DNA of 64,000 nt from a virus (IMGVR_UViG_2627853916_000003:1-64000), one strand, 5' to 3'; positions 14,026 through 59,909 are shown, counted from the first letter of the stretch. Numbers and translations: made by a program. Notes: a model not told the origin generated them from the sequence alone.

Positions 14026-14051
14026 TGTATATGAAATATATTTCATATACA
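14026..14051. promoter_or_regulatory. 26-bp perfect palindrome with AphA-box-like core ATATGAA-N6-TTCATAT
   Basis: TGTATATGAAATATATTTCATATACA spans the promoter spacer. Confidence 0.6.
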
Positions 14052-25875: not shown

Positions 25876-25915
25876 TTTGCAAGAAAAAAGGGACAACGAA
25901 TTGCCCCTTTGATTG

Positions 25916-32445: not shown

Positions 32446-32468
32446 GTTTTTCGCCTTGTTGGTCTGAA

Positions 32469-45264: not shown

Positions 45265-45310
45265 CGAATCCCCCAAGAGCGGCAGCCCGTAAGACTGCCG
45301 CTTACTTGCC

Positions 45311-46957
45311 TTATGCCGCTTCTGCTACAGGAGCTTCGTCGATAAGTTTCACACGGTAGAAGTAGTTCTCACCGTCGAATGGATGGATCTCGCCGTAGGC
45401 CAATTCGTATAGCGTGTTAGACGCTACTAGACCTTTGCCGATTGGATGTGTGTACATGGTTGCTGCGATCGCATCACCCGCTACGTAACCGGCTTCTGAG
45501 TGAGAAGAACCGCGACCGTAACAAAGCATGTCGTTCGTACCGATAACGACTGGACACTCGAACACTTTCCACATACCGAACAATTTACCCGCGTAGTGGA
45601 TAGCGTTTTTCTGTTGGTAGTTAGCCGGAGCAACGAAATATGGAGCACCTAGTGACTTAAGGATTGTTGACGCGCCAGTACCAGCAAAGATACCTGTCAT
45701 GCCAGTTGTGCGAGTCGCTTGTAGGATCTTCGTAGAAACGTTTAGAAGAACTTCGTTTAGACGTTCACGATGTAGACGCCAATCTTCACCAGCCGCTACA
45801 TAGATATTGAATGTTTCTTCGCGTGTACATGCGAAGTCCATATCTACTAGGTGGCGAGTAGACTTCTCAGATGCCAATGTGTTGCGCATGTGGCTCATTT
45901 GAAGCGATTTCAGATCTTGGCCAAACTCACGTTGCATTGCGAACATCGCTTGGATTGTTGCGTCTGCTGCGATTGCGTTTTGACGTGGGCGAAGAATGCG
46001 AGAATCCATATCGTGATCGATAGTTGGGATCAGGTCTGGACGTTTCTCGATGTCTACTTCGAACTCGATGTGTAGAACAGTTTCGGCTGGAAGTGCTGAT
46101 GTTGGGTTAACAGTCACTTTGCCTTTCGCATGGTCAATCTGACAGTTGATAACTACACCGTTGTGAGTACCAGTCATGATTGCGCCGCCGTTGCTGTCTA
46201 GGTCGCGCGCCACACGTTTGTGGTTTACGAATAGAGAAACGGAAGTCTTAGTGAATGGGATTTCAAACTTGGTGTGTTTTAGGTCAGTCTTAGAGTCAAA
46301 GACGTGAGTTGTCTTAGAACCGTCAGGCTGTTGTTCGTCTGCGAACTTGTAACGTTGACGCATTGATGAGTATTGGCCAACCGTTGCTTGGTCGATCTCA
46401 GTACCCGCTGCGAAGTCACCGAAGTTTGAACCAGTGCGGCGGTACACTTTGAAGATCTCAACTTCGTTAGCACCCGCAGGGATCATCGTTACAGCGTCAA
46501 GTGTTGCTGTTTCAAGAAGAACAGGAAGCACTAGGCCAACCATCTTCGCACGGATTTCAACACCCTCAGATGTTGATAGAGATTGACCGATAGACTCAAG
46601 CATCATTGCGCCTGTTGAGCCGTCACGTTTAGCACCCTCTAGTGTCATCATGTTACGCATAGTTGCGTGAGCAGATGCCATTAGTTCGTCGCTAGGTAGG
46701 TGGCCGTAAGTCTTCTCGTACTCACGTACCGCAGATTGCATACCAGATACGATACCAACCGCTGTTTCTTGAGACACAGACTCGAACATAGGCTCATTCG
46801 CAATAGCTGACAAAATAGCCGCGCCACGAGAATTGTCGTCAGTTAGAAACATGCCTGTTTGCGCATCGAATTGGGATTCGATACACAGATTACGCATTGC
46901 TTGAGCGCCTAAATGGATCGCCTCAATGCGTTTGTTGAAGTTAGAACGCTTATCCAT
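45311..46957 (-). CDS. Major capsid protein (P1 gp23-like)
   Basis: 548 aa; DIEKRPDLIPTIDH and AGYVAGDAI. Confidence 0.9.
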   Translation of the reverse strand: MDKRSNFNKRIEAIHLGAQAMRNLCIESQFDAQTGMFLTDDNSRGAAILSAIANEPMFESVSQETAVGIVSGMQSAVREYEKTYGHLPSDELMASAHATMRNMMTLEGAKRDGSTGAMMLESIGQSLSTSEGVEIRAKMVGLVLPVLLETATLDAVTMIPAGANEVEIFKVYRRTGSNFGDFAAGTEIDQATVGQYSSMRQRYKFADEQQPDGSKTTHVFDSKTDLKHTKFEIPFTKTSVSLFVNHKRVARDLDSNGGAIMTGTHNGVVINCQIDHAKGKVTVNPTSALPAETVLHIEFEVDIEKRPDLIPTIDHDMDSRILRPRQNAIAADATIQAMFAMQREFGQDLKSLQMSHMRNTLASEKSTRHLVDMDFACTREETFNIYVAAGEDWRLHRERLNEVLLNVSTKILQATRTTGMTGIFAGTGASTILKSLGAPYFVAPANYQQKNAIHYAGKLFGMWKVFECPVVIGTNDMLCYGRGSSHSEAGYVAGDAIAATMYTHPIGKGLVASNTLYELAYGEIHPFDGENYFYRVKLIDEAPVAEAA

Positions 46958-47240
46958 GTAAATAAACCTTAGTTATTTATTGAGTGTGTTCGGAATCATT
47001 AAGCCGCAGAAAAAGCGGTAAAAATTCGCTCAATTTCGGATAGTAATTAAGATTTATTGCGAAAAAAACAGGGCAAAAATGGCGTTTAACTTATTGTTAT
47101 CTAATGGTTTTGTGTCTTTTTGTGTGTCTTTGTGGGAATGGTAACGAAAGGGTATTTCTATATCTTTGATTGTGTGTTTTTGGAGAGGTAAAAGGGGATA
47201 GGAAAGGACAGCTAAAAAAATTTTAAAAAATTTTTAGCCG

Positions 47241-47588
47241 TTATAGCGTTCCAGCCAAAAAGCCGAACACATTGCTTAGCAGCTCTTGTGTGTCAGTTTC
47301 CAAGCTAGGAAGCTGTACACCGTAGAAAACCGCTAAAAAGTCACGAACGATGAGCTGATAAACGACCACCAGCGCAATGCTCCACATCATTGCTGAGCGT
47401 CCAGTGCGTACCAGCGTGTTAGAGCTGGCTGCCTCAAGTTCTGCCAGTTTGTAGGCAAACTCTTTGCGTTCTTCGTCGCTGGTAAACACGCGATCTCCAA
47501 ACTCGGCCAGTTCGTGAATAATGCCGCCCACTTTATCGCTGGTGGCACTCTTAAATAGACCTTTAGTAAACACTTTTGCTAGTCCCAT
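47241..47588 (-). CDS. Putative holin
   Basis: FTSDEER motif plus TM helix; next to amidase. Confidence 0.65.
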
Positions 47589-47590
47589 AT

Positions 47591-48139
47591 TTAGCCCTCT
47601 TTGATGTGTTCTGCGAACGCTTCTGCCAGTACCACGGCGAGCTGTTCACGTAGTTCTAAGCCCTTTTGCAACGATTCATCGTTAGACAAAAAGAACGGCT
47701 CTAAAATCACGGCTGGCATCTTGGTTTTCATCAAGAAACGCCAACCGCGAGTATCAGTACCAGTGTTCGAGATAGGCTTAAGGCCACGGTCACGCTGTCC
47801 GATAAGTCCAGCCACCGCTTTTTGTAGGCACTGCGCGAGCGCTTGGCTCTTGGCGGATTTGTGCCAGTACAATGTCTCTGAGCCTTGAACGTCCTTATTG
47901 GCCACGCTGTTACAATGTAACTCGATGGCGTAGTTAGCGCCCGAACCGTTCACGTCATCGATCATGCGTGAGTAGGTATCTCGGTACATGATCACTGGAA
48001 GAATGTCGCGCTTATGCAGTTCGGCAGCCAATAAGCTGGCTAGGGGATGATTGTATGCGTACTCATTCATTCCGAATGTTTCATTGTGCGCGCCACCATC
48101 TTTAAAACTATGGCCAACGATAATACAGACTTTTTTCAT
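47591..48139 (-). CDS. Endolysin, N-acetylmuramoyl-L-alanine amidase (Amidase_3)
   Basis: [20 protein letters not shown]. Confidence 0.92.
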
Positions 48140-48183
48140 TTTTCAGATTTCCAAACTAAATATAACTAATTAATAGTTAAGTG

Positions 48184-48212
48184 TTGACTGTGTTCGGAAT
48201 AGGAAATATATT
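48184..48212 (+). promoter_or_regulatory. sigma70 promoter of the Qrr-like sRNA, with GTGTTCGGAAT in the spacer
   Basis: TTGACT-N17-TATATT. Confidence 0.7.
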
Positions 48213-48218
48213 ATTTGC

Positions 48219-48340
48219 GTCTACTCGTTCTCCCAAGCGAGTGATGCCAACTGACGTTGAGATACTTCAATTTACTTCGACTGACAGCCTGACATTAGCT
48301 TCCAGTTTCGCCGCGACTCACTTACCTCGCGGCTTTTTTT
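48219..48340 (+). ncRNA. Qrr-like small RNA
   Basis: 5' hairpin ACTCGTT/AGCGAGT; Qrr core GCCAACTGACGTTG (48246-48259); terminator GCCGCGA...TCGCGGC-T7. Confidence 0.7.
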
Positions 48341-48386
48341 GCCTGTCGCATAGAAAAAACCAGCGCGAACGCTGGCTTTACTTGGA

Positions 48387-48728
48387 TTATGGTCGGTTGT
48401 GAACGGGCTCTATCTTGTTTGATTTAAAGTAATCAATAACAGGATTCACTCGATACGGCTCTACATGGAAGCTGGCTACTACCTGATCTTTGCGCATCAA
48501 GTAAAACTGATTTCCGTTGTATCGTACCGCATCAAATATCACGTTCATCCGGCATCCATCGTACATGTACTCGCCATCGACGCTAAGGCTTTTGCGTATC
48601 ACAAAGGATAGGCGCGCCTTGGTCGCTTTAAGCTCATTACGGACTTTAACTAAGTTAATCGCCAGTACGATAAGGAGCGACAATAATCCGCATAGTTGGT
48701 ATGCGTTAAGGTTAATTGAATAGCTCAT
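48387..48728 (-). CDS. Membrane-anchored hypothetical protein
   Basis: N-terminal TM helix starting MSYSINL; terminator at 48354-48379. Confidence 0.6.
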   Translation of the reverse strand: MSYSINLNAYQLCGLLSLLIVLAINLVKVRNELKATKARLSFVIRKSLSVDGEYMYDGCRMNVIFDAVRYNGNQFYLMRKDQVVASFHVEPYRVNPVIDYFKSNKIEPVHNRP

Positions 48729-48778
48729 ATTGTTATTTTTTATGTACGAATAGGAAATTTGTAAAATACGGAAACATT

Positions 48779-49546
48779 CTACAGTGTAAACACCTCTGCT
48801 GTCGCGTCTTTGATGCTCGGTTTTTTCGTCTGGTTGCTGCAAATGGTAAACGAAATCGCCTTAGTGAAGTAGTCCAGCGCCAAGGTGCGTTCCTCTTTCG
48901 ACGCAATGATCATTGCCTCAATCACCTTGCTTGAGCTGGCCACGCCACCAGCAAGCGGAGTCATTACCTCGTTTAGTGCATCGGCCTTGTTGGCCAGTTC
49001 TGGCGGTAAGACTGGCGGCGGCAAGGTTGCACCTCCACCCGTACCACTTTCGCCCGTTGGTGGCGCTGGTGGCGTCAATGCGCTGTTGATTTGCGCCATT
49101 AGGGACACGGCCTCATCAACATGGCCAGAAATACCGTTGATCACTGCCTCAAGCGCTTTCAGTTCTTCCTTGCTGGTAATTGGCAAGATACTCGGAGCGG
49201 GTACGTTGTCCTCTGTACCATCTACCTTGCGCTTAATGTTCACACCAATAGACACTTGCTCTAGGTCGGTTGGGTCGGTGATCAACACTAGGTGCTCATT
49301 CCATTGCGTTAACGTGGCCACGGTTGCGCTCACTGAGACATTTAAGCCCTTAAGCGTTGCGACTAGCTTTGATGCGCCTTGGTAGTCCTCAATATCCTCG
49401 CTCACGCAGCCTGATAGCTTCTCTGACAAACTTTCACACTTCACCTTAAGGGATTTACCTCGGGTAAGGTTCTCCGCTTCCTTAAGGCCGCCTACGTCTA
49501 AAAACTGGCGAAACTGCTCGATTTGCTCTTGTGTGTCTAACATCAA
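48779..49546 (-). CDS. upfB: UpfB-like baseplate-associated protein
   Basis: GGG-ATLPPP linker and N-terminus resemble P1 UpfB; next to PAAR. Confidence 0.65.
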   Translation of the reverse strand: MMLDTQEQIEQFRQFLDVGGLKEAENLTRGKSLKVKCESLSEKLSGCVSEDIEDYQGASKLVATLKGLNVSVSATVATLTQWNEHLVLITDPTDLEQVSIGVNIKRKVDGTEDNVPAPSILPITSKEELKALEAVINGISGHVDEAVSLMAQINSALTPPAPPTGESGTGGGATLPPPVLPPELANKADALNEVMTPLAGGVASSSKVIEAMIIASKEERTLALDYFTKAISFTICSNQTKKPSIKDATAEVFTL

Positions 49547-49552
49547 ATTGCC

Positions 49553-49837
49553 TCAATCAATCGTCATTAAGTCGTTACCGTTCACCAGCGTAGCGCCACA
49601 CCCAAGGGCATCGCCTACTACTGCGACCGGAACGCCATTAACAGTAAGTTTTGAACTACCAGTAATAACGCCAACGTGCGGCGGGTTATCTGGTTTTACG
49701 TGCATGACGGATATATCACCCGTCCCTAAAACGTTGACTCCATTCACGGTCAGTAGTGGTTGGCCAGTAACAAAAACACCTGGACTAAAGCCACCATGAC
49801 CACTATCCACACTCCCTACAATTCCTACGGCTGGCAT
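49553..49837 (-). CDS. PAAR spike-tip protein (UpfC-like)
   Basis: SGHGGF, VNGVPVAVVGDALGCG. Confidence 0.9.
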   Translation of the reverse strand: MPAVGIVGSVDSGHGGFSPGVFVTGQPLLTVNGVNVLGTGDISVMHVKPDNPPHVGVITGSSKLTVNGVPVAVVGDALGCGATLVNGNDLMTID

Positions 49838-49843
49838 GGCGCA

Positions 49844-50614
49844 CTACCCTAATGTAAATGGAGCTGCGGCAGCCTTAACAGCGAACTGGCCACCAGCATC
49901 GATATTGACGTTACCACTCGCTTTAATGGTCACTTCATTGCCCTCTAGGTTGGCTTTACCGGAGGCTTTTACGGTTGCATTACCACCCGCTTCGATGTTC
50001 GCATCGCCTTTCACTTTGATAGTTAGTGCGCCTCCAACTTGCTCCAATGTGTTCCCTGTTGAGCTGCGAAACGCATTGCCCTCGACGTGGATAACACATT
50101 GGCCATCTGGCGTAATTTCAATGGCCGTGCCGCTTTGGGTATGCGTAACTGAGTAGCCGCCTTGATGCGTGATGAGCTCGCGCAAACCAAATCGCACAAA
50201 GAGCGCATCTTTGCGGTCATAGGCTGGTGGCTCGGGTTCACCCTCGGCTCGTTTAGGCTGATAGGCTTCGCCGTTCACCTCGCTTGGTAGGTACGATTCG
50301 TAGTTAGGCGCGTAGTAAAGCGATCCGGTAATACGGGGATAACGGGTATCGCCATTGCGAGGAAAATCCACCCAAACCAGATCGCCTTTTTCCACTGGCA
50401 CGACTTGGCCACAACTCGGTTTTGCACCTAATGGCAGTAGAAACTCGGCAAAGGGGAGATCTTTATCGGGGATAGCATCCCAATAGCCAAGCAAGCGAAC
50501 CGATACCATGTACAAGCCTTTCGGATGGACAGGATTAACCACCTCGGCCTGATAGCTACCAAACAAGCGGTTAGTGACGTTGGTGCGTGTTCTGTTCTCT
50601 GACGAATCGCTCAT
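49844..50614 (-). CDS. Baseplate spike (P1 gp5/gpV-like)
   Basis: OB fold GDLVWVDF, beta-helix C-terminus. Confidence 0.85.
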   Translation of the reverse strand: MSDSSENRTRTNVTNRLFGSYQAEVVNPVHPKGLYMVSVRLLGYWDAIPDKDLPFAEFLLPLGAKPSCGQVVPVEKGDLVWVDFPRNGDTRYPRITGSLYYAPNYESYLPSEVNGEAYQPKRAEGEPEPPAYDRKDALFVRFGLRELITHQGGYSVTHTQSGTAIEITPDGQCVIHVEGNAFRSSTGNTLEQVGGALTIKVKGDANIEAGGNATVKASGKANLEGNEVTIKASGNVNIDAGGQFAVKAAAAPFTLG

Positions 50615-51588
50615 AGGTTTCGCACTCCTAACTCGATACGACACTGATACCGGTTCCCACGTTGGCAATGGGCGACACGGTTCATGATTTGTTTCTCTGG
50701 CATGGACTCATCCAGCTCGGTAGCGGGTAGCCGTTTATGGAATAGCACTGAGCACACCGAAAGAGGCGTAAAGGCGGTATTTCCGGTAAGTTCCACATCC
50801 AAAATAGGGATGATGGCCATGTGTTGATTATTCAGCGCCTTGGCTTGTGGAACGCTAACCATAACCATAGCGCCCGAACGTTTACCGCCTTGGAAGCCCT
50901 CGACGGTATCCCAAGAGGCATAGTTACGGTTAAGAACGCGCTCAAACAGGGCTTCCTCTCCGATAATGGAGTAGTTCGCAATGCTGTGCTCTGCTTCCTC
51001 TGGATTCGACTGTTCCAGCTTGAATTGCTCGCTCATATCCATGTTCTTGAGCGACTTAAAGTGCATAACACCACGGCAGATAAACGCTGCTGAACCGTAA
51101 TCTCTGGCCATTGTTCGAATTAAGCGAGACTTAGTGCCACCAGCGTTTAAATGGTACGTAGCGCCACGCTCAAAGCTGTCACATTCGATTTTTAGGTCGG
51201 GTAATAGCTCGGCCAGAATGTCTCTAGGCTGCATTTCGACAAAGAATCGAGGCGTTGTGACTGGCTCTTTAAGTAGGTGCGCGTCCTTTTGGAACGCTTG
51301 AACCGTTAGCATGCCGTCAGCGCTGGTGGACTTGGCCACAATGAATTTTTCAATCCAAACCTGATCGCCTCGTTCGTTCACATCGGCCATCGTGACCTCG
51401 ATCTCTGAACCGCGCTTAATCCCGTAGTCATCCCGATAAACGGCAGCCTGATCCATGATTTCCATTACCAGCTTATTGCCGTCCATCGAAGCGCACTCAA
51501 TGTAGGTAAACGAATGTACGTCCTCGATGGTGATGTCATTTCCGTTGGTGACAACTTTTTGGGCGAGAAAGTATTCTTTGTTACTCAA
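50611..51588 (-). CDS. Baseplate hub (P1 gp6-like)
   Basis: Synteny; probable TTG start at 51588. Confidence 0.75.
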   Translation of the reverse strand: MSNKEYFLAQKVVTNGNDITIEDVHSFTYIECASMDGNKLVMEIMDQAAVYRDDYGIKRGSEIEVTMADVNERGDQVWIEKFIVAKSTSADGMLTVQAFQKDAHLLKEPVTTPRFFVEMQPRDILAELLPDLKIECDSFERGATYHLNAGGTKSRLIRTMARDYGSAAFICRGVMHFKSLKNMDMSEQFKLEQSNPEEAEHSIANYSIIGEEALFERVLNRNYASWDTVEGFQGGKRSGAMVMVSVPQAKALNNQHMAIIPILDVELTGNTAFTPLSVCSVLFHKRLPATELDESMPEKQIMNRVAHCQRGNRYQCRIELGVRNL

Positions 51589-52342
51589 TGACTCGACCTC
51601 CCACGCCAATCGCGCCCTGACGGACAGTAATCGACTCGGCCTCATAAACCTCTGCAATCACTTCAAAAGAGATTGAGGAAGCAAACAGGCGAGTATTTTC
51701 ATGGTCTACTTCGGCGGGTTCGGTCATCGCATCTTTACGGCCACGGATCTCGATGCTGATTTCCATTTCAGTACCCGCGAGCATGGTTTTCGCTCTGAAT
51801 ACGTGCTTACGCTTGCCCTTGGTATGACGTAACCAAACCATTAAACCTAGCGCTAGGCGGCTAAGGGTAGACTGGTTCCAAGCTAGGGCATTAATGCGGT
51901 AGGTAAGCGCGACAAAGGACTTATTAACCACGGCATAAGGCTGGCCTTGCTCATTGGCCAGTTCGCCATAGTCAGCAATATCGACGTACTCCGCGCCATC
52001 AACAAACCCAATCACCGGATCGCGCGTGATATAGCAAACAGGCACAAGCTCATTGCGGTTCGCTTTCACCTTGTCGCCTAACTTGGCCGTTAACTTAGAT
52101 AGGAATGACACTGGATCGGTAAAGTTGCCGTAATAAATCTTTCTCGACTTATCACGGCCAACAAAGCGAGAAAACTCACTGTTCTCTCGCCGTTTAGTGT
52201 CAGTCACAACTAAGGAATCAAGCACGTTCTGGAAAAAGGCTGCCACCGCACGGTCAATATCGGTTAACTCTGTGTGTTCCACCTTGCCATCGAATGTCAC
52301 TACATCGCATGGGATTTCAAAGAACGCATCGTCCAGTTGCAT
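51581..52342 (-). CDS. Tail completion protein (P1 gp24-like)
   Basis: Synteny. Confidence 0.65.
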   Translation of the reverse strand: MQLDDAFFEIPCDVVTFDGKVEHTELTDIDRAVAAFFQNVLDSLVVTDTKRRENSEFSRFVGRDKSRKIYYGNFTDPVSFLSKLTAKLGDKVKANRNELVPVCYITRDPVIGFVDGAEYVDIADYGELANEQGQPYAVVNKSFVALTYRINALAWNQSTLSRLALGLMVWLRHTKGKRKHVFRAKTMLAGTEMEISIEIRGRKDAMTEPAEVDHENTRLFASSISFEVIAEVYEAESITVRQGAIGVGGRVIE

Positions 52343-52344
52343 GA

Positions 52345-52890
52345 TTAGTCCTCCAAATCGTCCAGCTCGTAATACTTACGGCCTTTCACGATAGTGATGC
52401 ACTTATCGCTTCGGTGTAAGGTCACATCGAACTTGTGGAAGTTGCTCGTTAGGATAGGGAGGTAAGCTGATACAGGCTCATTGCGCTGGTAGCCGTCTCG
52501 CGTTTTGCGGCCTTTACCGGATCGGTTGCCCTCATTGATTTGAATGACCGCGCAATCAAAATCAATCTTGGCCATGTCTGCGATCGCTGCGTCTAGGTCT
52601 TTGTGCATGTTAAGCACGTTCGCGCATAACATGACGCAAAAACGGCGTTTTGAGCTATCAATTTCGGCAATATTGTTTACTACGCCTTTCGCTTTCGAGT
52701 TCGGGTCATAGTGAGTGACCGTCATAATCTGCTTGTGGTAGTTAGTGAGGTATTCTTCTGTTAGGTCGGGAAACTTACCGCAACCAAAGTTAAGAATGTT
52801 TTTCGCGTATGACCAGTTAGGTGCAAGTCTGCTAAGGCACTTGGCACTGGCTGGCACTTGCTTTCGGCTAGTCTGTAATGTCATGCACAC
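52345..52890 (-). CDS. Small SAM-dependent methyltransferase-like protein
   Basis: ILNFGCGK motif I, YDP, CANVLN, GYQRN. Confidence 0.75.
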   Translation of the reverse strand: MCMTLQTSRKQVPASAKCLSRLAPNWSYAKNILNFGCGKFPDLTEEYLTNYHKQIMTVTHYDPNSKAKGVVNNIAEIDSSKRRFCVMLCANVLNMHKDLDAAIADMAKIDFDCAVIQINEGNRSGKGRKTRDGYQRNEPVSAYLPILTSNFHKFDVTLHRSDKCITIVKGRKYYELDDLED

Positions 52891-52944
52891 TCCAAAATTG
52901 GAGTGGCGCTTTAAGGATGGGTTGGAATAGGGCTGATATTAGCG

Positions 52945-53565
52945 TTAAAGCTCGATCACTTCACCGTCTTGTAAGTTTTCTTCCGGTTCTGGTAAGAAAT
53001 CCTCCACTGGCTCGGGTTCTGACTCAATTGAACTATCCGGCAATTCCGGTAAGTTCGCTGGTGGCTGATTAAAATCACGCATTGGTATGCAGATATAGAT
53101 CACGCCCACGTTCGCCGTGCCATAGCCAACGGCCTTATGTACGTACCACCACACGGTTCGTAATCCCTCGGCAGTTTCTTCATCCCATTCCAGCACACTA
53201 CCGATAGGAACATGGTGCGAAGCAATACGCAGCATTAGCGGCTCTAAGGACTCGCCAAGGTTTTCGTCGCCATCGTCCATCATGAAAAAGTTCTCTTGCT
53301 CATCTGGACAATCCAACAAAGCCACCAGCTCCGGATCGCTATAAGTGAGCGTGTCTTGGTTGGTTTCGAGCTCTAACACTGACTCGTTTTGGTAATTATC
53401 ATCCGTTGGTGCGGATTCTGGCTCTACAGGACGATACAGGGACGCTTCAAAGTGATCAGGTGATAGTTTGATAGCCTTAATCCAATCTTCCCTTAAAACG
53501 CGATTAAAGGGCTCATGGCCTTGGTATCGAACCTTTCTTGCTACAGGTTTAACTACGTCACTCAC
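52945..53565 (-). CDS. P1 gp7-like tail/neck protein
   Basis: GHEPFN...DW, VPIGSVLEW, WWYVH; synteny. Confidence 0.65.
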   Translation of the reverse strand: MSDVVKPVARKVRYQGHEPFNRVLREDWIKAIKLSPDHFEASLYRPVEPESAPTDDNYQNESVLELETNQDTLTYSDPELVALLDCPDEQENFFMMDDGDENLGESLEPLMLRIASHHVPIGSVLEWDEETAEGLRTVWWYVHKAVGYGTANVGVIYICIPMRDFNQPPANLPELPDSSIESEPEPVEDFLPEPEENLQDGEVIEL

Positions 53566-54713
53566 TTGATGATTCTCTCTAATTTGCTTGGTGTTACGTT
53601 CATCAATTTTGCGAAGTCGGCCAGCGCTTCACCCTTAGTCTTTCCTTGCAGTTTGTAGCCGTCATGGAAGTTCTGGAAGCCGACCTTAATCATATCGATA
53701 TAACCTTTCTTCTCGTTGGACTCCTTACGCAGTTTGCGCGCTTGGCGCTTGATGGTTTCGCTTTCCCGTTTCTGTTTGGCGATCTGTTTTTCCATTGCTT
53801 TCTGAGCGCGTAGATATTTCGCGTGTTCGCGCGTAGCGGCGGCCTTATCCACCACCGTTTTACGGTTGCGAGCGGCGGCTTTCTTCTCGCGTTCGTTGAG
53901 CAAGTACGTCTTGTTATCTGAGCCAAAACCAACACGGCGCGCTTGCTGCTTCATTTGGTTGGCCAAGATGCGTTGCCATGCCAGCGATTGCAGCATGGTT
54001 GTTGCCTTAAGAACGTGTTTACATGCCACACCGGACAATTCAGGGTTTCGGATTTTCGGGAAAGCAAACTCTTTAGGCGGCGCTATGCAGTAGTTACCCA
54101 TAGTGGCCAAGTATCGATACCAATACTGGTGACGGCCACAGTCGCAATCAAAGGAAATACGGCCAGCACACGCCAGTTGCACCGCTTGGTTGTAATCCCC
54201 GTTAGGCGGTTCGTGTAGTAGTTCATCCCACTGCTCAAAACGCACCTTTACTCGGTGTTCCTCATGTTTCGATACGCTTGAGGCTCGAACACGAATCAGC
54301 GCGATATTGTTCTTAATACCGAACATCGTGGCCTTGTGAATGCCTGTACCGTCATCGACACGGTTGTTTGCACGGTCTACGTCGATTTGACGCGAGTTCT
54401 TCACCAAAAAGGCGTAGGTGATACCCGCTGTCTTGCTGTCATAGACCTCTTTGTGTCGCTGGCGAGCCTTGTCGAACTTGATCAGGTCTTCTTTGGTAAA
54501 TCGTTGCCCTTTAGCCTTTTCGCCTAGCGCCTTTAACGCCTTGTTGGTTGGTTTGGTCAGCGTTGAGGCGGTCAGCGTTCGCTTGGCATTGCGGCGGTTT
54601 TTCTTTTGCGCCTGTTCAATCTTGTTGAATAGCTGGTTGAACTGCTTTTCATTGAGGCCAAGGCTGGCAAATGAGCCGTTATCCCGTTTTTCCGCTTCAA
54701 ACTTCTTCGGCAT
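53562..54713 (-). CDS. P1 gp25-like protein with SWIM-type Zn finger
   Basis: CDCGRHQYWYRY...ACKH. Confidence 0.75.
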   Translation of the reverse strand: MPKKFEAEKRDNGSFASLGLNEKQFNQLFNKIEQAQKKNRRNAKRTLTASTLTKPTNKALKALGEKAKGQRFTKEDLIKFDKARQRHKEVYDSKTAGITYAFLVKNSRQIDVDRANNRVDDGTGIHKATMFGIKNNIALIRVRASSVSKHEEHRVKVRFEQWDELLHEPPNGDYNQAVQLACAGRISFDCDCGRHQYWYRYLATMGNYCIAPPKEFAFPKIRNPELSGVACKHVLKATTMLQSLAWQRILANQMKQQARRVGFGSDNKTYLLNEREKKAAARNRKTVVDKAAATREHAKYLRAQKAMEKQIAKQKRESETIKRQARKLRKESNEKKGYIDMIKVGFQNFHDGYKLQGKTKGEALADFAKLMNVTPSKLERIIK

Positions 54714-54716
54714 AGG

Positions 54717-55046
54717 TTACAGCCCCATTTCGTCCATGAATTGACGCATAGAGCGGCGCACCCACGCTGCTGGTGGCAGTTTGATAGTTTGGCCAACGGG
54801 TAGCGGATTCATTGGGTCATCTACGTCACAAACCAGACTCACTAGCCAATCAAGCTCAACCGTGCCATAGGCGCGATAAGAGGCCAGATCGGCACGGTAG
54901 GTTTCATCAAGTCGAATGGTGTACTCAAACAGCTCGGTATTGCCCGAACGGTTGACGTATTCCATGACTTTCGCAAAGAAATGCGCCCGTAGAATATCGT
55001 CCTCGATGTTCTCTGCTGAGAGGCGGGATAACTTACTCATGATCAC
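54717..55046 (-). CDS. Baseplate protein (P1 gp26-like, LysM-like)
   Basis: YRADLASYRAYG...LPVGQTIKLP. Confidence 0.8.
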   Translation of the reverse strand: MIMSKLSRLSAENIEDDILRAHFFAKVMEYVNRSGNTELFEYTIRLDETYRADLASYRAYGTVELDWLVSLVCDVDDPMNPLPVGQTIKLPPAAWVRRSMRQFMDEMGL

Positions 55047-55665
55047 CTCCCATACGATACTTACCGTCTGCGATTAGCCCCGTTTTGGCCTTAAACAGTC
55101 CAAACGCGCGCGAGGCCATTTCCGGCTCTTTCTTGGGCTTGCGTAACATGCCAAACAAGCTCTTAAGCGTTACCGTGTCGTTAAGGTTGTCTTGTGTGGC
55201 CGCATAGACCACAAACATGAGCGCGTAGGTATCAGGGCGCAGTTCTGACCAGTCGATGTTGTACATTGGCTTGCCATCTGTTCCCCGTACTTCTTCCACG
55301 ATGGACGGCGACACTTCATAGCGGCCACCAGCATTAGGCGGGTAGGTGATAGCATTTAGGGATGAGAGATAGTTATAGGCTTCCATTGCCGACACAATGA
55401 TCGGTCTGCCTTTTGCGTCCAGCTCGGATAAGCGAACGGCGCGCCCATACTTCGCAAAATAGGGCGTAACCTCGTCCACCAGCACAATAAAACCGCCTTT
55501 TTTGAGCTTTTCTAGCTTCTTAGGCAAGGTAAGTTTGAGGCTCATTAAAGAGCGCTCTAATTGCTGGCATTCGATGATATGGAGTTGGCCATCATCCACA
55601 CCAGCAAGCATAAGCCGTGGCTGGCCGGATGATAGAGTGAGTACAGCTATGCGCTTTCGTGCCAT
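55033..55665 (-). CDS. P1 Pmg-type morphogenetic protein (possibly PmgR-like)
   Basis: IVLVDEVTP, GRPIIV, IDWSELRP recall a P1 morphogenesis protein. Confidence 0.5.
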   Translation of the reverse strand: MARKRIAVLTLSSGQPRLMLAGVDDGQLHIIECQQLERSLMSLKLTLPKKLEKLKKGGFIVLVDEVTPYFAKYGRAVRLSELDAKGRPIIVSAMEAYNYLSSLNAITYPPNAGGRYEVSPSIVEEVRGTDGKPMYNIDWSELRPDTYALMFVVYAATQDNLNDTVTLKSLFGMLRKPKKEPEMASRAFGLFKAKTGLIADGKYRMGGDHE

Positions 55666-55762
55666 GTTGTGACCTCTAAGCGCGCTTTTTAAGATGGGGA
55701 ATCTTGGTCAGTTTAACACCATTAACCAAGCTTTTGAGCCTCGTTAATGGTGTTTATGTTAA

Positions 55763-56437
55763 TTAATGTTCGGAATGCTTAGGATAAATATTTTCCAGTA
55801 GTTCAAGCGGCAATCCCGCCAGCTTATAGACCTTAAACAACAGCTCTATCTCTGTACCGTTGTAGATCTTCCATTGCGCCTTACCGCCGTATTTCCCTTT
55901 CGCATGGAGCGGTATCATATCTGGATACTGAGCACGCTTATCCGCTTCCAGTAGCGTGTCGTGGTGATAACAACACAAGGGTAATACATACGCATGCGCC
56001 CGTTCACCAACACGGCCAAACACATGATGTAAGGAAATCACCGGATTCTCTCGGCCATGCAGCCAACACGCAATACATGGTAAGCGGCCAATGGCATCCA
56101 TGATGCGCCTTTCCTCTGCTGTTGGCGTTCGGCCTTTCAATCCCTTACTGGCGATCTTTTTGGTTGGTTTCTTCACTACAGGCTTTGCCTTTTGGCGCTC
56201 GATGCGCTGTTGCTGTTTGTCACGCTGCTTTTTCTGGTATTCGGGATCATTTAAGCGCTCGATTTGGCGCTGACGCTGACGTTCTTGCTGCTGTAATTGC
56301 TTTTTGAAGCGCTTCTCCCGTTCCTCGGGATCATTCATCTTGGCGATTTGCTTTGCGCGCGCCCGTTCCATTGATTGTTTTTGCTTCTCTCGTTGTCTTT
56401 GAAGTTTCTCTGCTATTGTCAAAGCCATTAAAAACAC
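55763..56437 (-). CDS. ref: Ref, RecA-dependent HNH nuclease
   Basis: GLKGRTPTAEERRI...LPCIAC...SLHH...LPLC..HH as in P1 Ref. Confidence 0.93.
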   Translation of the reverse strand: MFLMALTIAEKLQRQREKQKQSMERARAKQIAKMNDPEEREKRFKKQLQQQERQRQRQIERLNDPEYQKKQRDKQQQRIERQKAKPVVKKPTKKIASKGLKGRTPTAEERRIMDAIGRLPCIACWLHGRENPVISLHHVFGRVGERAHAYVLPLCCYHHDTLLEADKRAQYPDMIPLHAKGKYGGKAQWKIYNGTEIELLFKVYKLAGLPLELLENIYPKHSEH

Positions 56438-56537
56438 CTACTATTCGCTTTGCTCATGTTTCACATTTGCTGGTGGAACACGAAAAGGCTGGTAACTCGA
56501 ATTTTTGCTGATTCGAACTGTTTGCTAAGGCCAGCCG

Positions 56538-56568
56538 CAAAAAAACCGCGTTTATTCGCGGTTTTTTT
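56538..56568. terminator. Bidirectional terminator
   Basis: AAAAAAACCGCGtttattCGCGGTTTTTTT. Confidence 0.75.
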
Positions 56569-56575
56569 GTACCTA

Positions 56576-56764
56576 TCAAAAGTAACTCTCAATCAAAACC
56601 CGATGGCATGGTTTGCCCTCATCGTTGCGAAGTCTCTGCCCTAAAGTGACGATCTTCATCAACTTGCCCTCATAGTCCCAAGGCTGGTTTCGAGTTAAGC
56701 ACTCTTTGGCTCGTTTAAGTGCTGGCGAGCCAACTAAGAGATAAACGGCCTTTCTAGGTTTCAT
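56576..56764 (-). CDS. Hypothetical protein
   Basis: ATGA overlap with the aphA-like gene; GGAGG SD. Confidence 0.6.
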   Translation of the reverse strand: MKPRKAVYLLVGSPALKRAKECLTRNQPWDYEGKLMKIVTLGQRLRNDEGKPCHRVLIESYF

Positions 56765-57294
56765 GCAGCGTCCTCCGTAGCAATGCTTGAGGAAGTGATC
56801 ATTGATAGCGAACGTTCGGCAAACTTAAGCTCTGCTTTACGCATATCAATGTCGCGCTCTACATGCAGTGTGAAGTTGTCACAGAACACGCCTTTCTCTT
56901 TCTGGTGCGCGTTCAGCTTCTCTTTAAGTTGAGTGATTTCTTGATTGAGTTTTTCAATGTACGACTTGAAGTAGGTCTCGCTGCCGATTTCCAGCATCAC
57001 CGATGCAGGACAGCGAATGATAGACAGGTCGCGGCACGTAGATTCGTTGCGTAAAAGGTCAAGAACGCGCTCACCATCTTGAGTTAGTGTGTAATTCTTG
57101 CGGTCTGGTTTGCCGTCTTGAGCTTCCAGTTCGTGTGATACTAAGCCCTTTTCAGCCATGCGATTTAGTTCGCGGTACACTTGCTGGTGGCTGGCTTGCC
57201 ATGCGCCAGATTCAGGCATGGATTTGTTTGTTAAGTCGTAACCAGTTTGTGTTTTTTGCTCAAGAATTGATAGAAGTAGATTACCCAAAGTCAT
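56761..57294 (-). CDS. AphA-like PadR-family transcription factor
   Basis: TGYDLT...WQASHQQVYRELNRM..GLV...Q.GKPDRK.Y..TQ.G closely matches Vibrio AphA; 177 aa. Confidence 0.88.
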   Translation of the reverse strand: MTLGNLLLSILEQKTQTGYDLTNKSMPESGAWQASHQQVYRELNRMAEKGLVSHELEAQDGKPDRKNYTLTQDGERVLDLLRNESTCRDLSIIRCPASVMLEIGSETYFKSYIEKLNQEITQLKEKLNAHQKEKGVFCDNFTLHVERDIDMRKAELKFAERSLSMITSSSIATEDAA

Positions 57295-57310
57295 AGTTAG
57301 TTACCTTTTG

Positions 57311-57769
57311 TTATTGTTGCCAAATTTCACCTGAGTCCTCGTCAATAAATCCATGACATAGGTACTCTCTACTTGTTGAGTAATGCGTAAGTCTTCCCTT
57401 TAACGCTTTTTTGTTGCGGTTATGCCAGTGCTCGTATCCGGCAGTAAACGCATATTGGTTATTGTTGTAATCTGCATAATGCAGATCTGAGCCATTGCGA
57501 GCCTCACTTACTCCCGCCGACCAGCTTGCTAGAAAATCGTCACGCTCATTGAGTTTGATGGCTTGTCGCTCATCATCATGCACCCCAAGTAGCGTGATAA
57601 TTCCTAGCCCTTGCATGCGGTCAATGACGGTCGTATCGAAATAGCCGATGTAGATTTCATCGTGTGGGATAAATTCTACTTGTGGTGGCATTTCGTAGAC
57701 CGTGCCATCTAGCGGTAGAGCTTCCATAAGCTCTATGAGTAGGCTCAACTGGTTTTTTGGAATTGCCAT
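57311..57769 (-). CDS. Hypothetical protein
   Basis: 152-aa ORF in the same operon as the aphA-like gene. Confidence 0.65.
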   Translation of the reverse strand: MAIPKNQLSLLIELMEALPLDGTVYEMPPQVEFIPHDEIYIGYFDTTVIDRMQGLGIITLLGVHDDERQAIKLNERDDFLASWSAGVSEARNGSDLHYADYNNNQYAFTAGYEHWHNRNKKALKGRLTHYSTSREYLCHGFIDEDSGEIWQQ

Positions 57770-58016
57770 TGGCCAGCGCCTTGTCTAGTTGTTTAACCAC
57801 ATCAGCGCACATGGAAAAGCGAGGCATTTCATTTCGTATCGCTTTTTCGTCTGCGCCCTCAATAAAGGCTTTCGCCTCATCTGCACTCCCTAACACCCAA
57901 CTCACACATACGTTCGCTACCGCGCCAGCGTTGCGGCTAATGGCCATCGATACTGTTGCTCCGTGGTTAGACAGGACAATAGTGCCTTTGCTGGTATTGA
58001 ACTTTTTTATGGTCAT
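57657..58016 (-). CDS. Hypothetical protein
   Basis: Probable start MTIKKFN; overlaps the next ORF. Confidence 0.5.
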   Translation of the reverse strand: MTIKKFNTSKGTIVLSNHGATVSMAISRNAGAVANVCVSWVLGSADEAKAFIEGADEKAIRNEMPRFSMCADVVKQLDKALANGNSKKPVEPTHRAYGSSTARWHGLRNATTSRIYPTR

Positions 58017-58221
58017 TGGTCGATAATTTATGAACCGTGTTCGGAATGTTGGAAAAAAGACTACCACAACAAATTTTGGATATGCAACCACTAATTTGCA
58101 CCTTAACATCAAAATTTTATAGCTCGATAAAAATTTGCGTGTTCGGAATAAAAAGGTGTTGCCATAATCCAAAAATGGGATTAGATTACGCCCCAAGCAA
58201 ACAGTCGGAGCAGTTTAAGAA

Positions 58222-58650
58222 ATGAATCTAATTCACGGATTTTGCAGCACTAACCCACTAATTAACCCTGATATGGTGCTAATGCAGAGAGGCACATACG
58301 CCCACCAGCTAAAGCGACTTTTCACTGACAGCAAACTACGTGTTGGCCATCTTTACGAAATGAGAACGACAGCAAGTAGCAGCGAAAAATACTGGGAATC
58401 ATTGGCCGCCTATTTTGATGAAATCACTTTTAAAGCCAAACAAAGTTATACAGAAAGTGATTCTCAGTATCACTTTTTAACTTACTTATCCGATGCGGTT
58501 TATTTGATAGAGAAAAAGGGCATTGATTGGGATGTGCTTATTCACTCTTTGATTTTGGATAGCGACCAAACGCAAGAAACCCAAGATCAACAGCTACGCA
58601 ATATCAGCCACCTTTTGAAAATGACACAGCAATACGCAGAGCAGTTTTAA
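58222..58650 (+). CDS. Hypothetical protein
   Basis: First gene of the rightward operon. Confidence 0.65.
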   Translation: MNLIHGFCSTNPLINPDMVLMQRGTYAHQLKRLFTDSKLRVGHLYEMRTTASSSEKYWESLAAYFDEITFKAKQSYTESDSQYHFLTYLSDAVYLIEKKGIDWDVLIHSLILDSDQTQETQDQQLRNISHLLKMTQQYAEQF

Positions 58651-58652
58651 CG

Positions 58653-58850
58653 ATGGTGACGATCTACCCATTAGACGAATTTATTAAAGCGAATTTCCGA
58701 AGCAATTCGGAGTTTGCCAGGATTCACGGCGTTGTCTTAAACACGGTTTACAAGATGAACGCCAATGGCGTCCATGCCAGCGGTGACAGAAACAATTACA
58801 CCCTTTGGTATGGCAAGAAACACGGCAGTGAACAACAGCAATTGTTCTAG
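58653..58850 (+). CDS. Small Cro-like HTH protein
   Basis: SNSEFARIHGVVLNTVYKM. Confidence 0.5.
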   Translation: MVTIYPLDEFIKANFRSNSEFARIHGVVLNTVYKMNANGVHASGDRNNYTLWYGKKHGSEQQQLF

Positions 58851-58888
58851 TTCCACCAGCAATTAAGAAACATCAAGAGACAGAGAGC

Positions 58889-59338
58889 ATGTTGAATATG
58901 ACTTTATTCGAACTGATCACCCCTAGCGACCCATACACGTTCTACGCGCCTAACTTAGAAGTGGCAGCGGTCGTCGCTTACTCACTATCAAGCCATTACG
59001 GCGCTGTTTCAGTCGATAATCCAGAAGAACGCTCACCGATCCTTTTAGGTTGGGGAGAATGGTTTGAAGAACGAAACATCGATGGCGAGTGGATGAAAGC
59101 AAACCATCTTGTTTTGGCCGATGCCTTTGATTCGTTAGTGATTGGCAAGCCGGAGAAACGCGCACAGTTCGACGCGACATTGGCCGCACTATCTGACAGC
59201 CAGAAAGAGGCATTCAAGCGCGAACACAACGACAAGAAGCGCTCAAGCTTGAACAATATTGCCAGCGTTGCTTACGAGTACGCAGCGAAGTGCCGAGAAC
59301 TGCATAAACGAGAACAGGGTAAAGCTAATGCTATTTGA
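58889..59338 (+). CDS. Hypothetical phage protein
   Basis: FELITPSDPYTF...RSSLNNI. Confidence 0.7.
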   Translation: MLNMTLFELITPSDPYTFYAPNLEVAAVVAYSLSSHYGAVSVDNPEERSPILLGWGEWFEERNIDGEWMKANHLVLADAFDSLVIGKPEKRAQFDATLAALSDSQKEAFKREHNDKKRSSLNNIASVAYEYAAKCRELHKREQGKANAI

Positions 59339-59771: not shown

Positions 59772-59909
59772 CTTTCCATTGGCTGCCAGTTCGCTGGTGG
59801 CCATCCCTATCCTGATTTATGGCCACTTTAGATGAGCGCCAACGGATAGATGCAGTTATAAGCTGTGGTGTATTATGTACACCCTAACTACCCAAAAGAT
59901 ATACAGAAA

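What the first reader, a model, noticed from the sequence alone, without database searches (positions are those of the whole stretch)
48184..57294. Candidate system: two-armed phage lock of host quorum sensing (Qrr mimic plus AphA mimic)
Known: in Vibrio, Qrr sRNAs and AphA together define the low-density state and both oppose HapR/LuxR. Seen: this element carries a mimic of each, and both units have the motif GTGTTCGGAAT in their upstream regions (48190 for the sRNA; 58037 and 58139 for the operon containing the aphA-like gene). Inference: co-regulated rewriting of the host quorum-sensing output, distinct from phages that only sense autoinducer (such as VP882 VqmA).
Basis: inference. Interest (0 to 1): 0.9.

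Follow-up and report, generated by a model that had tools for sequence, protein, structure and literature searches.

The report
Phage small RNA copying Qrr core
A Vibrio phage-plasmid carries a small RNA gene containing an exact 14-base copy of the target-binding core of the host's Qrr quorum-sensing RNAs, plus a distant phage relative of the regulator AphA, but the two look like separate members of the phage's general regulon, not a dedicated two-part system.

Summary
The sequence features are real, but the "two-armed lock" is only partly supported.

**Small RNA (48219-48340, +).**
- It has a near-consensus sigma-70 promoter, a 5' hairpin and its own terminator.
- Bases 48246-48259 equal the invariant core of all 14 host Qrr genes compared.
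- Rfam's Qrr model does not match, and identity stops at 14 bases.
- Only 2 of 16 related loci carry the exact core. The other 14 are not exact: 12 of the 13 read in full have 12/14, with UGA changed to UAA.
- The exact allele is predicted to pair at the Qrr site of opaR/luxR mRNA, but not with luxO or aphA.

**PadR protein (56761-57294, -).**
- It belongs to phage family phrog_13512, already published in 2026 as a "prophage AphA homolog".
- It is 39% identical to chromosomal AphA, with the DNA-reading helix and wing conserved.
- Relatives occur in 96 Vibrio phage records.

**Shared motif.** GTGTTCGGAAT is a genome-wide phage signal, with 12 exact copies in 91.9 kb. It does not link these two loci specifically.

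This scan noted the same RNA and protein earlier on another genome (e1-5953779, e1-5953780). The RNA is the new and testable part. I found no paper describing it.

The parts
48184..48212 (+). Sigma-70-type promoter of the small RNA: TTGACT, 17-nt spacer, TATATT. The phage motif fills the first 11 nt of the spacer.
   Evidence: Read directly. Conserved in related loci. There is no sigma-54 -24/-12 element, unlike the host qrr genes, whose upstream TGGCA-N5-TGC is visible.
48190..48200 (+). Copy of the phage-wide motif GTGTTCGGAAT inside the small RNA promoter. It is a likely operator or activator site for an unidentified phage factor.
   Evidence: The core TTCGGAAT is kept in relatives while the flanks vary.
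48219..48340 (+). Predicted ~120-nt small RNA (allele A): 5' hairpin 48219-48245, core 48246-48259, weak hairpin 48279-48307, terminator 48310-48333 plus U7.
   Evidence: MFE -30.3 kcal/mol, z -2.59, and 1 of 200 shuffles folded as well. Allele B has the same architecture, with z -3.29. An RNA-library contig covers 48131-48364 with 2 other letters, but its strand and transcription are not shown. The start point is inferred from the promoter.
48246..48259 (+). GCCAACTGACGTTG: a 14-nt exact copy of the invariant Qrr stem-loop-2 core.
   Evidence: Identical in 14 of 14 host Qrr genes. Unique in the window. Predicted to pair with UCAACUCAAAUGGCA just 5' of the opaR ribosome-binding site.
48354..48379 (-). 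Separate terminator of the convergent minus-strand tail/baseplate operon.
   Evidence: Read directly. Conserved in relatives.
56761..57294 (-). 177-aa PadR-family regulator of phage family phrog_13512 (AphA-like).
57657..58016 (-). Unannotated conserved first gene of the operon (119 aa). It overlaps the next gene by about 113 nt.
   Evidence: tblastn gives 95-97% identity in two relatives and 41% over 120 aa in a V. campbellii plasmid, E 2e-25. No Pfam or PHROG hit.
57311..57769 (-). 152-aa protein of phrog_8101, function unknown.
   Evidence: E 6e-48.
56576..56764 (-). 62-aa ORF between PadR and Ref. It is annotated as hypothetical in relatives.
55763..56437 (-). Ref-type RecA-dependent nuclease, the last gene of the operon.
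   Evidence: Pfam PF16786 at 8e-26. Annotated as Ref in relatives.
58037..58047 (+). Motif copy 20 nt upstream of the start codon of the first operon gene (57657-58016, minus strand).
   Evidence: Syntenic copy present in relatives.
58139..58149 (+). Second motif copy, 102 nt from the first. It sits 9 nt upstream of a TTGCCA-17-TAGATT promoter-like site for the plus-strand gene 58222-58650.
55766..55776 (+). One-mismatch motif copy (ATGTTCGGAAT) at the 3' end of ref, upstream of the tail gene block.
   Evidence: same variant at the syntenic place in a relative.
46986..46996 (+). Motif copy 28 nt upstream of the start of the 548-aa gene at 45311-46957. This shows the motif also serves virion genes.
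14026..14051 (.). Unique 26-bp perfect palindrome (core ATATGAA-N6-TTCATAT). It is one base per arm from the published AphA box and overlies a minus-strand promoter of a ~100-nt structured transcript. It is a candidate operator of the phage PadR, by inference only.
   Evidence: (the longest perfect palindrome in the genome). Box consensus from PMC3440409.

Best explanation
The window is a P1-like Vibrio phage-plasmid. Between 48.2 and 58.2 kb it holds two separate regulators that belong to the phage's general regulon. They do not form a dedicated two-gene system.

(i) The small RNA. A real, independently transcribed, Hfq-type RNA of about 120 nt is driven by a strong sigma-70 promoter that carries a phage operator in its spacer. 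In this allele the single-stranded stretch after the 5' hairpin is an exact 14-nt copy of the Qrr stem-loop-2 core. The RNA most likely pairs with the Qrr site of the opaR/luxR/valR leader and lowers production of the high-density master regulator. This would not depend on LuxO phosphorylation or sigma-54. It cannot reproduce Qrr action on aphA or luxO.

(ii) The PadR protein. It is a phage-lineage, two-domain PadR (phrog_13512) whose recognition helix and wing equal those of AphA. It probably binds AphA-box-like dyads. Its first target may be the phage's own 26-bp palindrome, and host AphA sites are possible secondary targets.

(iii) The motif. GTGTTCGGAAT is bound by an unidentified phage factor, as P1 C1 binds its dispersed asymmetric operators. 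It times both units together with at least ten other transcription units.

Shown: the anatomy, the sequence identity, the family placement and the distribution. Inferred: transcription, pairing, binding and any host effect.
For: Element:
- It is a 91.9-kb virus record.
- It is 92.8% identical over 99% of a 16-kb query to circular 93-kb non-mobilizable V. alginolyticus plasmids.
- It carries a Ref nuclease, a DarB-like protein and a portal protein.

Small RNA:
- The promoter, hairpin and terminator are read directly.
- The 14/14 match holds for 14 of 14 host Qrr genes.
- The host genome has no exact copy outside its five qrr genes.
- Alleles A and B share one architecture, with different sequences forming the 5' hairpin.
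- In co-folding, all five host Qrr RNAs bind opaR mRNA at AUAUCAACUCAAAUGGCAAGG (ddG -10.7 to -11.9). Allele A binds the same site through its core (ddG -8.5). Allele B does not.
- In the 27-nt duplex test on opaR, Qrr scored -16.4 and allele A -16.8 (10 of 300 shuffles as good). Allele B scored -10.0 (161 of 300).
- Shao & Bassler 2012 (PMC3262071, passages): mutating UGA in Qrr4 hits luxR repression hardest. Shao et al. 2013 (PMC3730234, abstract and passages): stem-loop 2 is the core pairing region.

PadR:
- AphA is the best solved relative.
- SHQQVYREL is invariant across phage and chromosomal members; of the wing GKPDRK, K62, P63 and K66 are invariant and G61, D64 and R65 are kept in at least 90% of the 12 sequences.
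- phrog_13512 matches at 2.8e-70.
- The model shows a two-domain PadR fold, pLDDT 81. PadR 5x11 and AphA 1yg2 are both among the top four Foldseek hits.

Motif:
- There are 12 exact copies in the genome, at syntenic places in relatives, with the core conserved while the flanks vary.
Against: - The Rfam Qrr model finds nothing. Identity ends abruptly at 14 nt, so common descent with qrr is not shown.
- 14 of 16 related loci do not carry the exact core. Of these, 12 of the 13 read in full and the seed-only match on G001 have GTCAACTAACGTTG, and L149 differs at three positions. The family's conserved function is therefore probably something else.
- The predicted opaR duplex is not exceptional. 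At least 8 of 131 phage start regions score better (-16.8 to -19.8) than opaR (-15.2) with the same 24-nt probe.
- The pairing stops 1 nt short of the Shine-Dalgarno sequence, which Qrr itself covers.
- RNA evidence is limited to unstranded contigs at low depth in RNA libraries, which may contain DNA.
- PadR is only 39% identical to AphA. Pfam does not detect the AphA C-terminal domain PF10400 in it.
- AphA boxes are not enriched in the window: 2 found against 3.3 expected.
- The palindrome is a single site. It is absent from a V. campbellii plasmid, from phage SSP002 and from provirus record G005 (L087), all of which encode related PadRs.
- No factor binding the motif was identified.
Confidence: 0.55

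Rival explanations
1. The RNA and the PadR form a co-evolved, co-regulated two-armed system that locks the host in the low-density state: the RNA removes LuxR/OpaR, and the protein supplies AphA activity.
For: Both parts exist on one element. Both carry the phage motif upstream. The RNA core equals Qrr, and the PadR reading head equals AphA. The RNA cannot activate host aphA, so a phage AphA surrogate would fill that gap. This point is inference.
Against: - The motif sits at 19 sites across the genome.
- PadR occurs without the RNA in 5 of 15 plasmids.
- The exact Qrr core is in only 2 of 16 loci, while every one of those elements keeps PadR.
- The other allele-A element is 96.6% identical to the window around the RNA but only 93.4% around PadR. 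That is no closer than allele-B carriers.
- AphA-like PadRs occur in 96 Vibrio phage records, none of which showed a match to this RNA region.
Confidence: 0.15
2. The small RNA is a phage regulator of phage genes, or of unrelated host genes. The 14-nt identity to Qrr is fortuitous or functionally insufficient.
For: - The majority allele B lacks the UGA needed for the luxR-type pairing, yet its body is almost invariant across the 13 loci read.
- Several phage start regions give stronger predicted duplexes than opaR.
- A V. campbellii relative has a different small-RNA-like unit at the same place.
Against: - A 14/14 match inside about 105 positions of an RNA against a 32-nt core has a chance expectation near 1e-5. 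Over the whole window the expectation is about 0.01. These are my arithmetic, not a tool result.
- The match lies in the exposed stretch right after the 5' hairpin, as in Qrr.
- It pairs at exactly the Qrr site of opaR.
Confidence: 0.3
3. The PadR is purely a phage-internal repressor, for example of the transcript under the 26-bp palindrome, and does not act on host genes. Its likeness to AphA reflects shared ancestry only.
For: - It is a phage family of its own (phrog_13512), widespread in lytic-type Vibrio phages such as SSP002.
- The C-terminal half has diverged.
- A unique palindrome of PadR type (ATGA-N8-TCAT) covers a promoter in the same genome and in close relatives.
Against: The recognition helix is invariant and the wing invariant or nearly so between the phage and chromosomal proteins, so cross-binding to AphA boxes is hard to exclude. 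No palindrome was found in more distant phages that carry the family.
Confidence: 0.35

Closest known systems
Qrr1-5 small RNAs of Vibrio (Rfam RF00378)
   Same: A 14-nt stretch is identical to the stem-loop-2 core. A protective 5' hairpin lies directly before it, and the RNA ends in a rho-independent terminator. It is predicted to pair at the same site of the opaR/luxR leader.
   Different: The covariance model gives no hit. The promoter is sigma-70 type with a phage operator, not a sigma-54/LuxO promoter. The AGCC and ACCU regions needed for aphA, and the flanks used for luxO, are missing. Everything outside the 14 nt is unrelated.
AphA of Vibrio (PDB 1yg2; Pfam PF03551 + PF10400)
   Same: It is the best solved sequence relative (E 2e-20). 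The recognition helix SHQQVYRELN is identical and the wing GKPDRK conserved. It has the same length and a two-domain PadR fold.
   Different: It is 39% identical over 135 aa, whereas true AphA orthologs are >=84% identical to each other (PMC3440409). PF10400 is not detected. It is encoded in a phage operon with Ref.
Prophage 'AphA homolog' phrog_13512 (prophage.8; Environ Microbiome 2026, PMC13670528, also bioRxiv 10.64898/2026.03.26.714470)
   Same: It is the same PHROG family, in the same kind of element (Ref next to it, P1-type hdf/ulx genes). That paper reports about 34% similarity to host AphA and closest relatives in V. alginolyticus (passages read). The window's protein hits phrog_13512 at 2.8e-70.
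   Different: In the passages I saw, that paper does not mention a Qrr-like RNA or the motif. It only speculates on function.
C1 repressor operators of phage P1 (recalled, not tested against P1 sequence here)
   Same: Short asymmetric sites, in either orientation, are dispersed over the genome at many operon starts. Two of them stand before the operon that contains ref.
   Different: The sequence differs from the P1 operator as I recall it. No C1 homolog was found among the 19 different ORFs scanned. A role as a late-promoter element is not excluded.
Quorum-sensing interference by phage VP882 (VqmA-Phi receptor; the small RNA VpdS is recalled from memory)
   Same: A Vibrio plasmid-like phage is wired to host quorum sensing. 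PMC10426928 and PMC11315295 were seen as search listing and abstract starts only.
   Different: VP882 listens to an autoinducer through a receptor protein. Here, an RNA would write directly on the master regulator's mRNA.

Membership tests
Qrr sRNA (RF00378) | Match to the covariance model at or above the 50-bit gathering score | tested here: not met
   No hit in the window at gathering, none at E<=10 on 47900-48900, and none in the whole virus record. As a control, 14 Qrr genes scored 80-116 bits in three Vibrio genomes.
Qrr sRNA (RF00378) | Sigma-54 / LuxO~P-dependent promoter | tested here: not met
   The phage unit has TTGACT-17-TATATT. The host qrr genes show TGGCA-N5-TGC upstream.
Qrr sRNA (RF00378) | Conserved ~32-nt core (GGGTCACCTAGCCAACTGACGTTGTTAGTGAA in the 14 host genes) | tested here: not met
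   Only 14 contiguous nt are shared. Of the 14 flanking positions compared by eye, 1 matches.
Qrr sRNA (RF00378) | Pairing with the luxR/opaR leader through stem-loop 2 | tested here: inconclusive
   Allele A is predicted to use the same site. The energy is unexceptional against phage start regions. There is no experiment.
Qrr sRNA (RF00378) | Pairing regions for aphA (AGCC, ACCU) and for luxO | tested here: not met
   The regions are absent from the sequence. Duplex scores fall within the shuffles: luxO 227 of 300, aphA 156 of 300. Requirement taken from PMC3262071.
AphA (PadR subfamily 1) | N-terminal PadR winged helix-turn-helix | tested here: met
   PF03551 at 4.2e-15, residues 7-78.
AphA (PadR subfamily 1) | AphA-type C-terminal domain (PF10400) | tested here: not met
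   Pfam does not report it for the window's protein, though it is precomputed for chromosomal relatives P0020-P0024. The model does show a helical C-terminal domain of PadR-subfamily-1 type.
AphA (PadR subfamily 1) | Orthologue-level identity (>=84% among nine Vibrio species, PMC3440409) | tested here: not met
   39% over 135 aa to V. diabolicus AphA. All chromosomal hits are <=52% in their best segment.
AphA (PadR subfamily 1) | Binding to the AphA box ATATGCA-N6-TGCATAT | not testable with these tools
   The recognition helix and wing are identical or nearly so. One AphA-box-like palindrome is present in the phage.
phrog_13512 phage transcriptional regulators | Full-length match to the family profile | tested here: met
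   E 2.8e-70, residues 4-173 on profile positions 8-177 of 178.
P1 C1-type dispersed operator | Short asymmetric site repeated at many promoters of one phage | tested here: met
   12 exact and 7 one-mismatch sites, mostly intergenic and on both strands, at syntenic places in relatives.
P1 C1-type dispersed operator | A C1-like repressor encoded by the element | tested here: inconclusive
   No hit among 19 different ORFs scanned with PHROGs or Pfam. Most of the roughly 130 ORFs were not scanned.

The most novel reading that the evidence does not exclude
Allele A is a phage-made surrogate of Qrr that is switched by the phage's own repressor rather than by host autoinducers. When expressed, it removes OpaR/LuxR whatever the cell density. 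The phage AphA-like protein occupies AphA boxes at the same time. Together they would force a low-density programme, for example to keep receptors up or density-induced defences down. The A/B polymorphism (UGA versus UAA in the core) would then be a natural on/off variant of this host manipulation, maintained by selection.
Probability: 0.2. Interest if true: 0.85.

Novelty: new variant of a known kind. Interest (0 to 1): 0.6.

Why it matters
Phages are known to listen to bacterial quorum sensing through receptor proteins. A phage RNA that copies the business end of the host's own quorum-sensing RNAs, placed under phage control, would be a different and more direct route. It would act after signal integration, on the master regulator's mRNA.

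Two natural alleles differ at the very triplet whose mutation weakens luxR repression. That gives a ready-made experiment.

The PadR part adds little that is new, since it was published in 2026. Its conserved DNA-reading head and the single AphA-box-like palindrome in the phage do, however, give a concrete binding test.

The report also corrects the system-level claim. The shared motif is a phage-wide signal, so co-regulation is generic, not a signature of a dedicated module.

Tried and rejected
- **Rfam.** It was run at gathering score and at E<=10. The only listed match was a chance-level RNAI hit on the minus-strand terminator (20.7 bits against a cut-off of 47). I rejected it.
- **Phage collection.** No match to the RNA region or to 16 kb around it.
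- **First duplex runs.** Those with full-length RNAs and long leaders gave implausibly long, loop-rich duplexes. I discarded them in favour of short probes and co-folding.
- **One-mismatch complements of the core in a Vibrio genome**. None was opaR. One lies about 100 nt upstream of a LysR-type gene, and I did not pursue it. opaR was instead found through a TetR_N scan.
- **Fixed -10 element next to the motif.** I read the sites in both orientations and found no consistent spacing. Whether the motif is a promoter element or an operator therefore stays open.
- **C1-like repressor or other motif binder.** Not found among 19 different ORFs.
- **AphA boxes.** Not enriched in the window.
- **Wrong spacing.** I used N6 between ATGAAA and TTTCAT, so it says nothing. 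One search repeated the search correctly.
- **Mis-specified row.** The coordinates for L159 were wrong. I use only the single-sequence folds and the by-eye alignments for structure.
- **Sequencing runs.** 14 DNA runs from 8 studies hold 0.67-0.69 of the sampled words of 47600-48900. I did not lay them, so their allele is not known.
- **RNA runs X15-X18.** They are contigs and show neither strand, ends nor level. Contig breaks at 48130/48131 in three runs look like assembly breaks. Parts without cover mean nothing.
- **Supplementary files.** They were closed. Data S10/S14 and Fig. S6-S7 of PMC13670528 could bear on which elements carry the PadR.
- **Literature on a phage Qrr-like RNA.** Searches found no paper describing one. 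Searches covered the PadR.

Full report
**What the element is.** The window is the first 64 kb of a 91.9-kb virus record.
- Over 99% of a 16-kb query (44000-60000) it is 92.8% identical to two circular, non-mobilizable 93-kb Vibrio alginolyticus plasmids.
- Over about half of that stretch it is 92-93% identical to eight larger Vibrio plasmids of the same replicon cluster. These carry cargo inserted after about 52980.
- It encodes a Ref-type nuclease, a DarB-like methylase/helicase and a portal protein.

**The small RNA unit.**
- Anatomy. Between the amidase gene (47591-48139, minus) and the end of the minus-strand baseplate/tail operon lies TTGACT-17 nt-TATATT (48184-48212). It is followed by a 27-nt 5' hairpin, the stretch GCCAACTGACGTTG (48246-48259), a weak hairpin, and a GC hairpin with seven U. 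The convergent operon has its own terminator at 48354-48379.
- Match to Qrr. I located 14 Qrr genes in V. diabolicus, V. harveyi and V. cholerae with the Rfam model, at 80-116 bits. All 14 contain the 14-mer inside their invariant core. In the 5.1-Mb V. diabolicus genome the only exact copies are the five qrr genes. In the window it is unique.
- Limits of the match. The identity ends abruptly on both sides. The Rfam Qrr model finds nothing in the phage at gathering score or at E<=10. The promoter is sigma-70 type, whereas the host genes show the sigma-54 TGGCA-N5-TGC signature.
- Conclusion. The unit shares a seed with Qrr but is not demonstrably a qrr homologue.

**Relatives of the RNA.** I compared 16 loci.
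- Allele A (exact core): the window and one IMG/VR record (L117).
- Allele B: 13 loci read in full (L001, L002, L118, L119, L145-L151, L159, L160), plus a seed-only match on a V. diabolicus phage-plasmid contig. Some of these records may be the same element filed twice. Sources.
- How B differs. Twelve of the 13 have GTCAACTAACGTTG (12 of 14, with UGA changed to UAA); L149 differs at a third position, with C for T. B lacks 12+3 nt and has a different middle part.
- What B shares. It keeps the promoter, a 5' hairpin built from different letters, and the terminator. Both alleles fold significantly better than shuffles.
- Conservation. The B body is nearly invariant, while the promoter flanks vary.
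- Other elements. A more distant V. campbellii plasmid has an unrelated small-RNA-like unit at the same place.
- Conclusion. This is a syntenic small-RNA locus with replaceable bodies, and the exact Qrr core is the minority state.

**Predicted targets.**
- Co-folding. All five V. diabolicus Qrr RNAs bind the opaR leader at AUAUCAACUCAAAUGGCAAGG (ddG -10.7 to -11.9). Allele A binds the same site through its core (13 pairs, ddG -8.5). Allele B does not.
- Short probes. They agree for opaR. They show no signal for luxO or aphA with either phage allele.
- Published genetics (passages read). aphA activation needs AGCC in stem-loop 1 and ACCU, both absent here. Stem-loop 2 is the core pairing region. 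Mutating UGA hurts luxR repression most, and UGA is the triplet that allele B has lost.
- Against. At least 8 of 131 phage start regions give stronger duplexes than opaR with the same probe. The pairing ends one base before the Shine-Dalgarno sequence.
- RNA libraries. Contigs of two studies cover the locus with allele-A sequence (48131-48364 with 2 other letters; 47929-48275 with 4). They show neither strand nor level, and DNA carry-over is possible.

**The PadR protein.**
- Family. The 177-aa protein is a PadR. Its best solved relative is AphA, at E 2e-20 against 6e-9 for the next.
- Conserved parts. In an alignment with phage and chromosomal relatives, the helix SHQQVYREL and wing residues K62, P63 and K66 are invariant, and G61, D64 and R65 are kept in at least 90% of the 12 sequences. 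The C-terminal half diverges.
- Distance from AphA. It is 39% identical over 135 aa to the chromosomal AphA of V. diabolicus. True AphA orthologues are at least 84% identical to each other (PMC3440409). Pfam does not see the AphA C-terminal domain in it.
- Structure. The AlphaFold model (pLDDT 81) is a two-domain PadR. It matches B. subtilis PadR and AphA about equally.
- Phage family. It matches phrog_13512 end to end. Relatives occur in 104 phage records, 96 of them Vibrio phages, including the SSP002 group.
- Prior publication. A 2026 paper (PMC13670528, passages) already describes this family as a prophage-encoded AphA homolog. It sits next to Ref on an element with hdf/ulx genes, and the authors speculate that it could affect the lysogenic switch or quorum sensing.
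- Possible operator. A search for AphA boxes in the window found no enrichment. One hit is the genome's longest perfect palindrome (26 bp, 14026-14051). It lies one base per arm from the AphA box and overlies a minus-strand promoter of a structured ~100-nt transcript. It is kept, imperfectly, in close relatives. It is absent from the three more distant records that encode related PadRs: a V. campbellii plasmid, phage SSP002 and provirus G005. It is a candidate operator and nothing more.

**The shared motif.**
- Counts. GTGTTCGGAAT occurs 7 times exactly and 3 times with one mismatch in the window, against 1.08 expected. In the whole genome it occurs 12 times exactly and 7 times with one mismatch.
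- Placement. It is mostly intergenic and found in both orientations. It stands before the portal/DarB divergent region, the 548-aa gene at 45311-46957, the amidase/RNA region, the tail block, the PadR operon (two copies 102 bp apart), and several units outside the window. One of those has a tandem pair before a leaderless-looking 98-aa ORF.
- Conservation. Syntenic copies exist in relatives. Between relatives the motif is conserved while its flanks vary.
- Role. I found no fixed -10 spacing and no binding protein. The pattern resembles the dispersed asymmetric C1 operators of P1, which is a recollection and was not tested.
- Conclusion. It places both loci in a phage-wide regulon but does not pair them.

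**Linkage of the two arms.**
- PadR is annotated under the match in 15 of 16 plasmids.
- The RNA locus is found in 10 of these.
- None of the 9 plasmid loci read carries allele A.
- The other allele-A element is 96.6% identical to the window around the RNA but 93.4% around PadR, like allele-B carriers.
- The arms are therefore not inherited as a unit.

**Verdict.** The observations stand. The RNA with the Qrr core is the interesting part. I found no paper describing it, though this scan noted the same thing earlier on another genome. The system-level reading is weakened for three reasons: the motif is generic, the exact seed is a minority allele, and the protein is a known phage family outside true AphA. 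I rate the finding a new variant of a known kind (phage small RNAs and phage interference with quorum sensing), with interest 0.6.

Noticed in passing
window 57657-58016 (-), overlap with 57311-57769: An unannotated 119-aa ORF starts 20 nt after a motif copy. It is conserved down to a V. campbellii plasmid (41% aa identity, E 2e-25). It overlaps the next gene by about 113 nt at an A-run (CCAAAAAACC), so the two may be overlapping genes or joined by a frameshift.
   Followed up: partly
window 13915-14051: A 26-bp perfect palindrome covers a minus-strand TTGTAT-17-TACATT promoter. It is followed by a ~100-nt structured RNA (z -3.9) with a strong terminator. The unit is conserved at 82-84% in ten plasmids. 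The RNA's unpaired stretch UUCAACGU is complementary to ACGUUGA(A) of the Qrr-like RNA over 7-8 bp, which could be chance.
   Followed up: partly
window 13253-32486: The palindrome TTTTCGCATGCGAAAA and its variant TTCTCGCATGCGAGAA recur many times. Perfect copies are at 13253, 13727, 14171, 18348, 25774, 25815 and 32469.
   Followed up: no
G000 83865-83895 (outside the window; L154 11865-11895): Two motif copies 20 bp apart are followed by TATAAT. An ATG lies 6 nt after that hexamer and opens a 98-aa ORF with no family hit. This looks like a leaderless, tightly controlled regulator gene.
   Followed up: partly
L152 4020-4130 (V. campbellii plasmid NZ_CP050480.1): At the place syntenic to the small RNA there is a different promoter-plus-terminator unit: TTGATT-17-TATAGT with GGGTTCGTATG in the spacer, then about 80 nt. 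This suggests a replaceable small-RNA slot with that phage's own operator variant.
   Followed up: no
L002 17000-24972 (NZ_CP046807.1): Larger relatives carry cargo inserted after the equivalent of window ~52980. It includes an NYN-domain protein, a GNAT/DUF1778 toxin-antitoxin pair, OsmC, glgC and a diguanylate cyclase.
   Followed up: no
window 48130/48131: RNA-library contigs of three runs from two studies end at 48130, and one begins at 48131, 9 nt inside the amidase ORF. This is probably an assembly break.
   Followed up: no
L123 (V. diabolicus G001:C4:48836-49849): A one-mismatch complement of the Qrr core (CAACATCAGTTGGC) lies about 100 nt upstream of a LysR-type regulator gene. It may be a Qrr target leader.
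   Followed up: no
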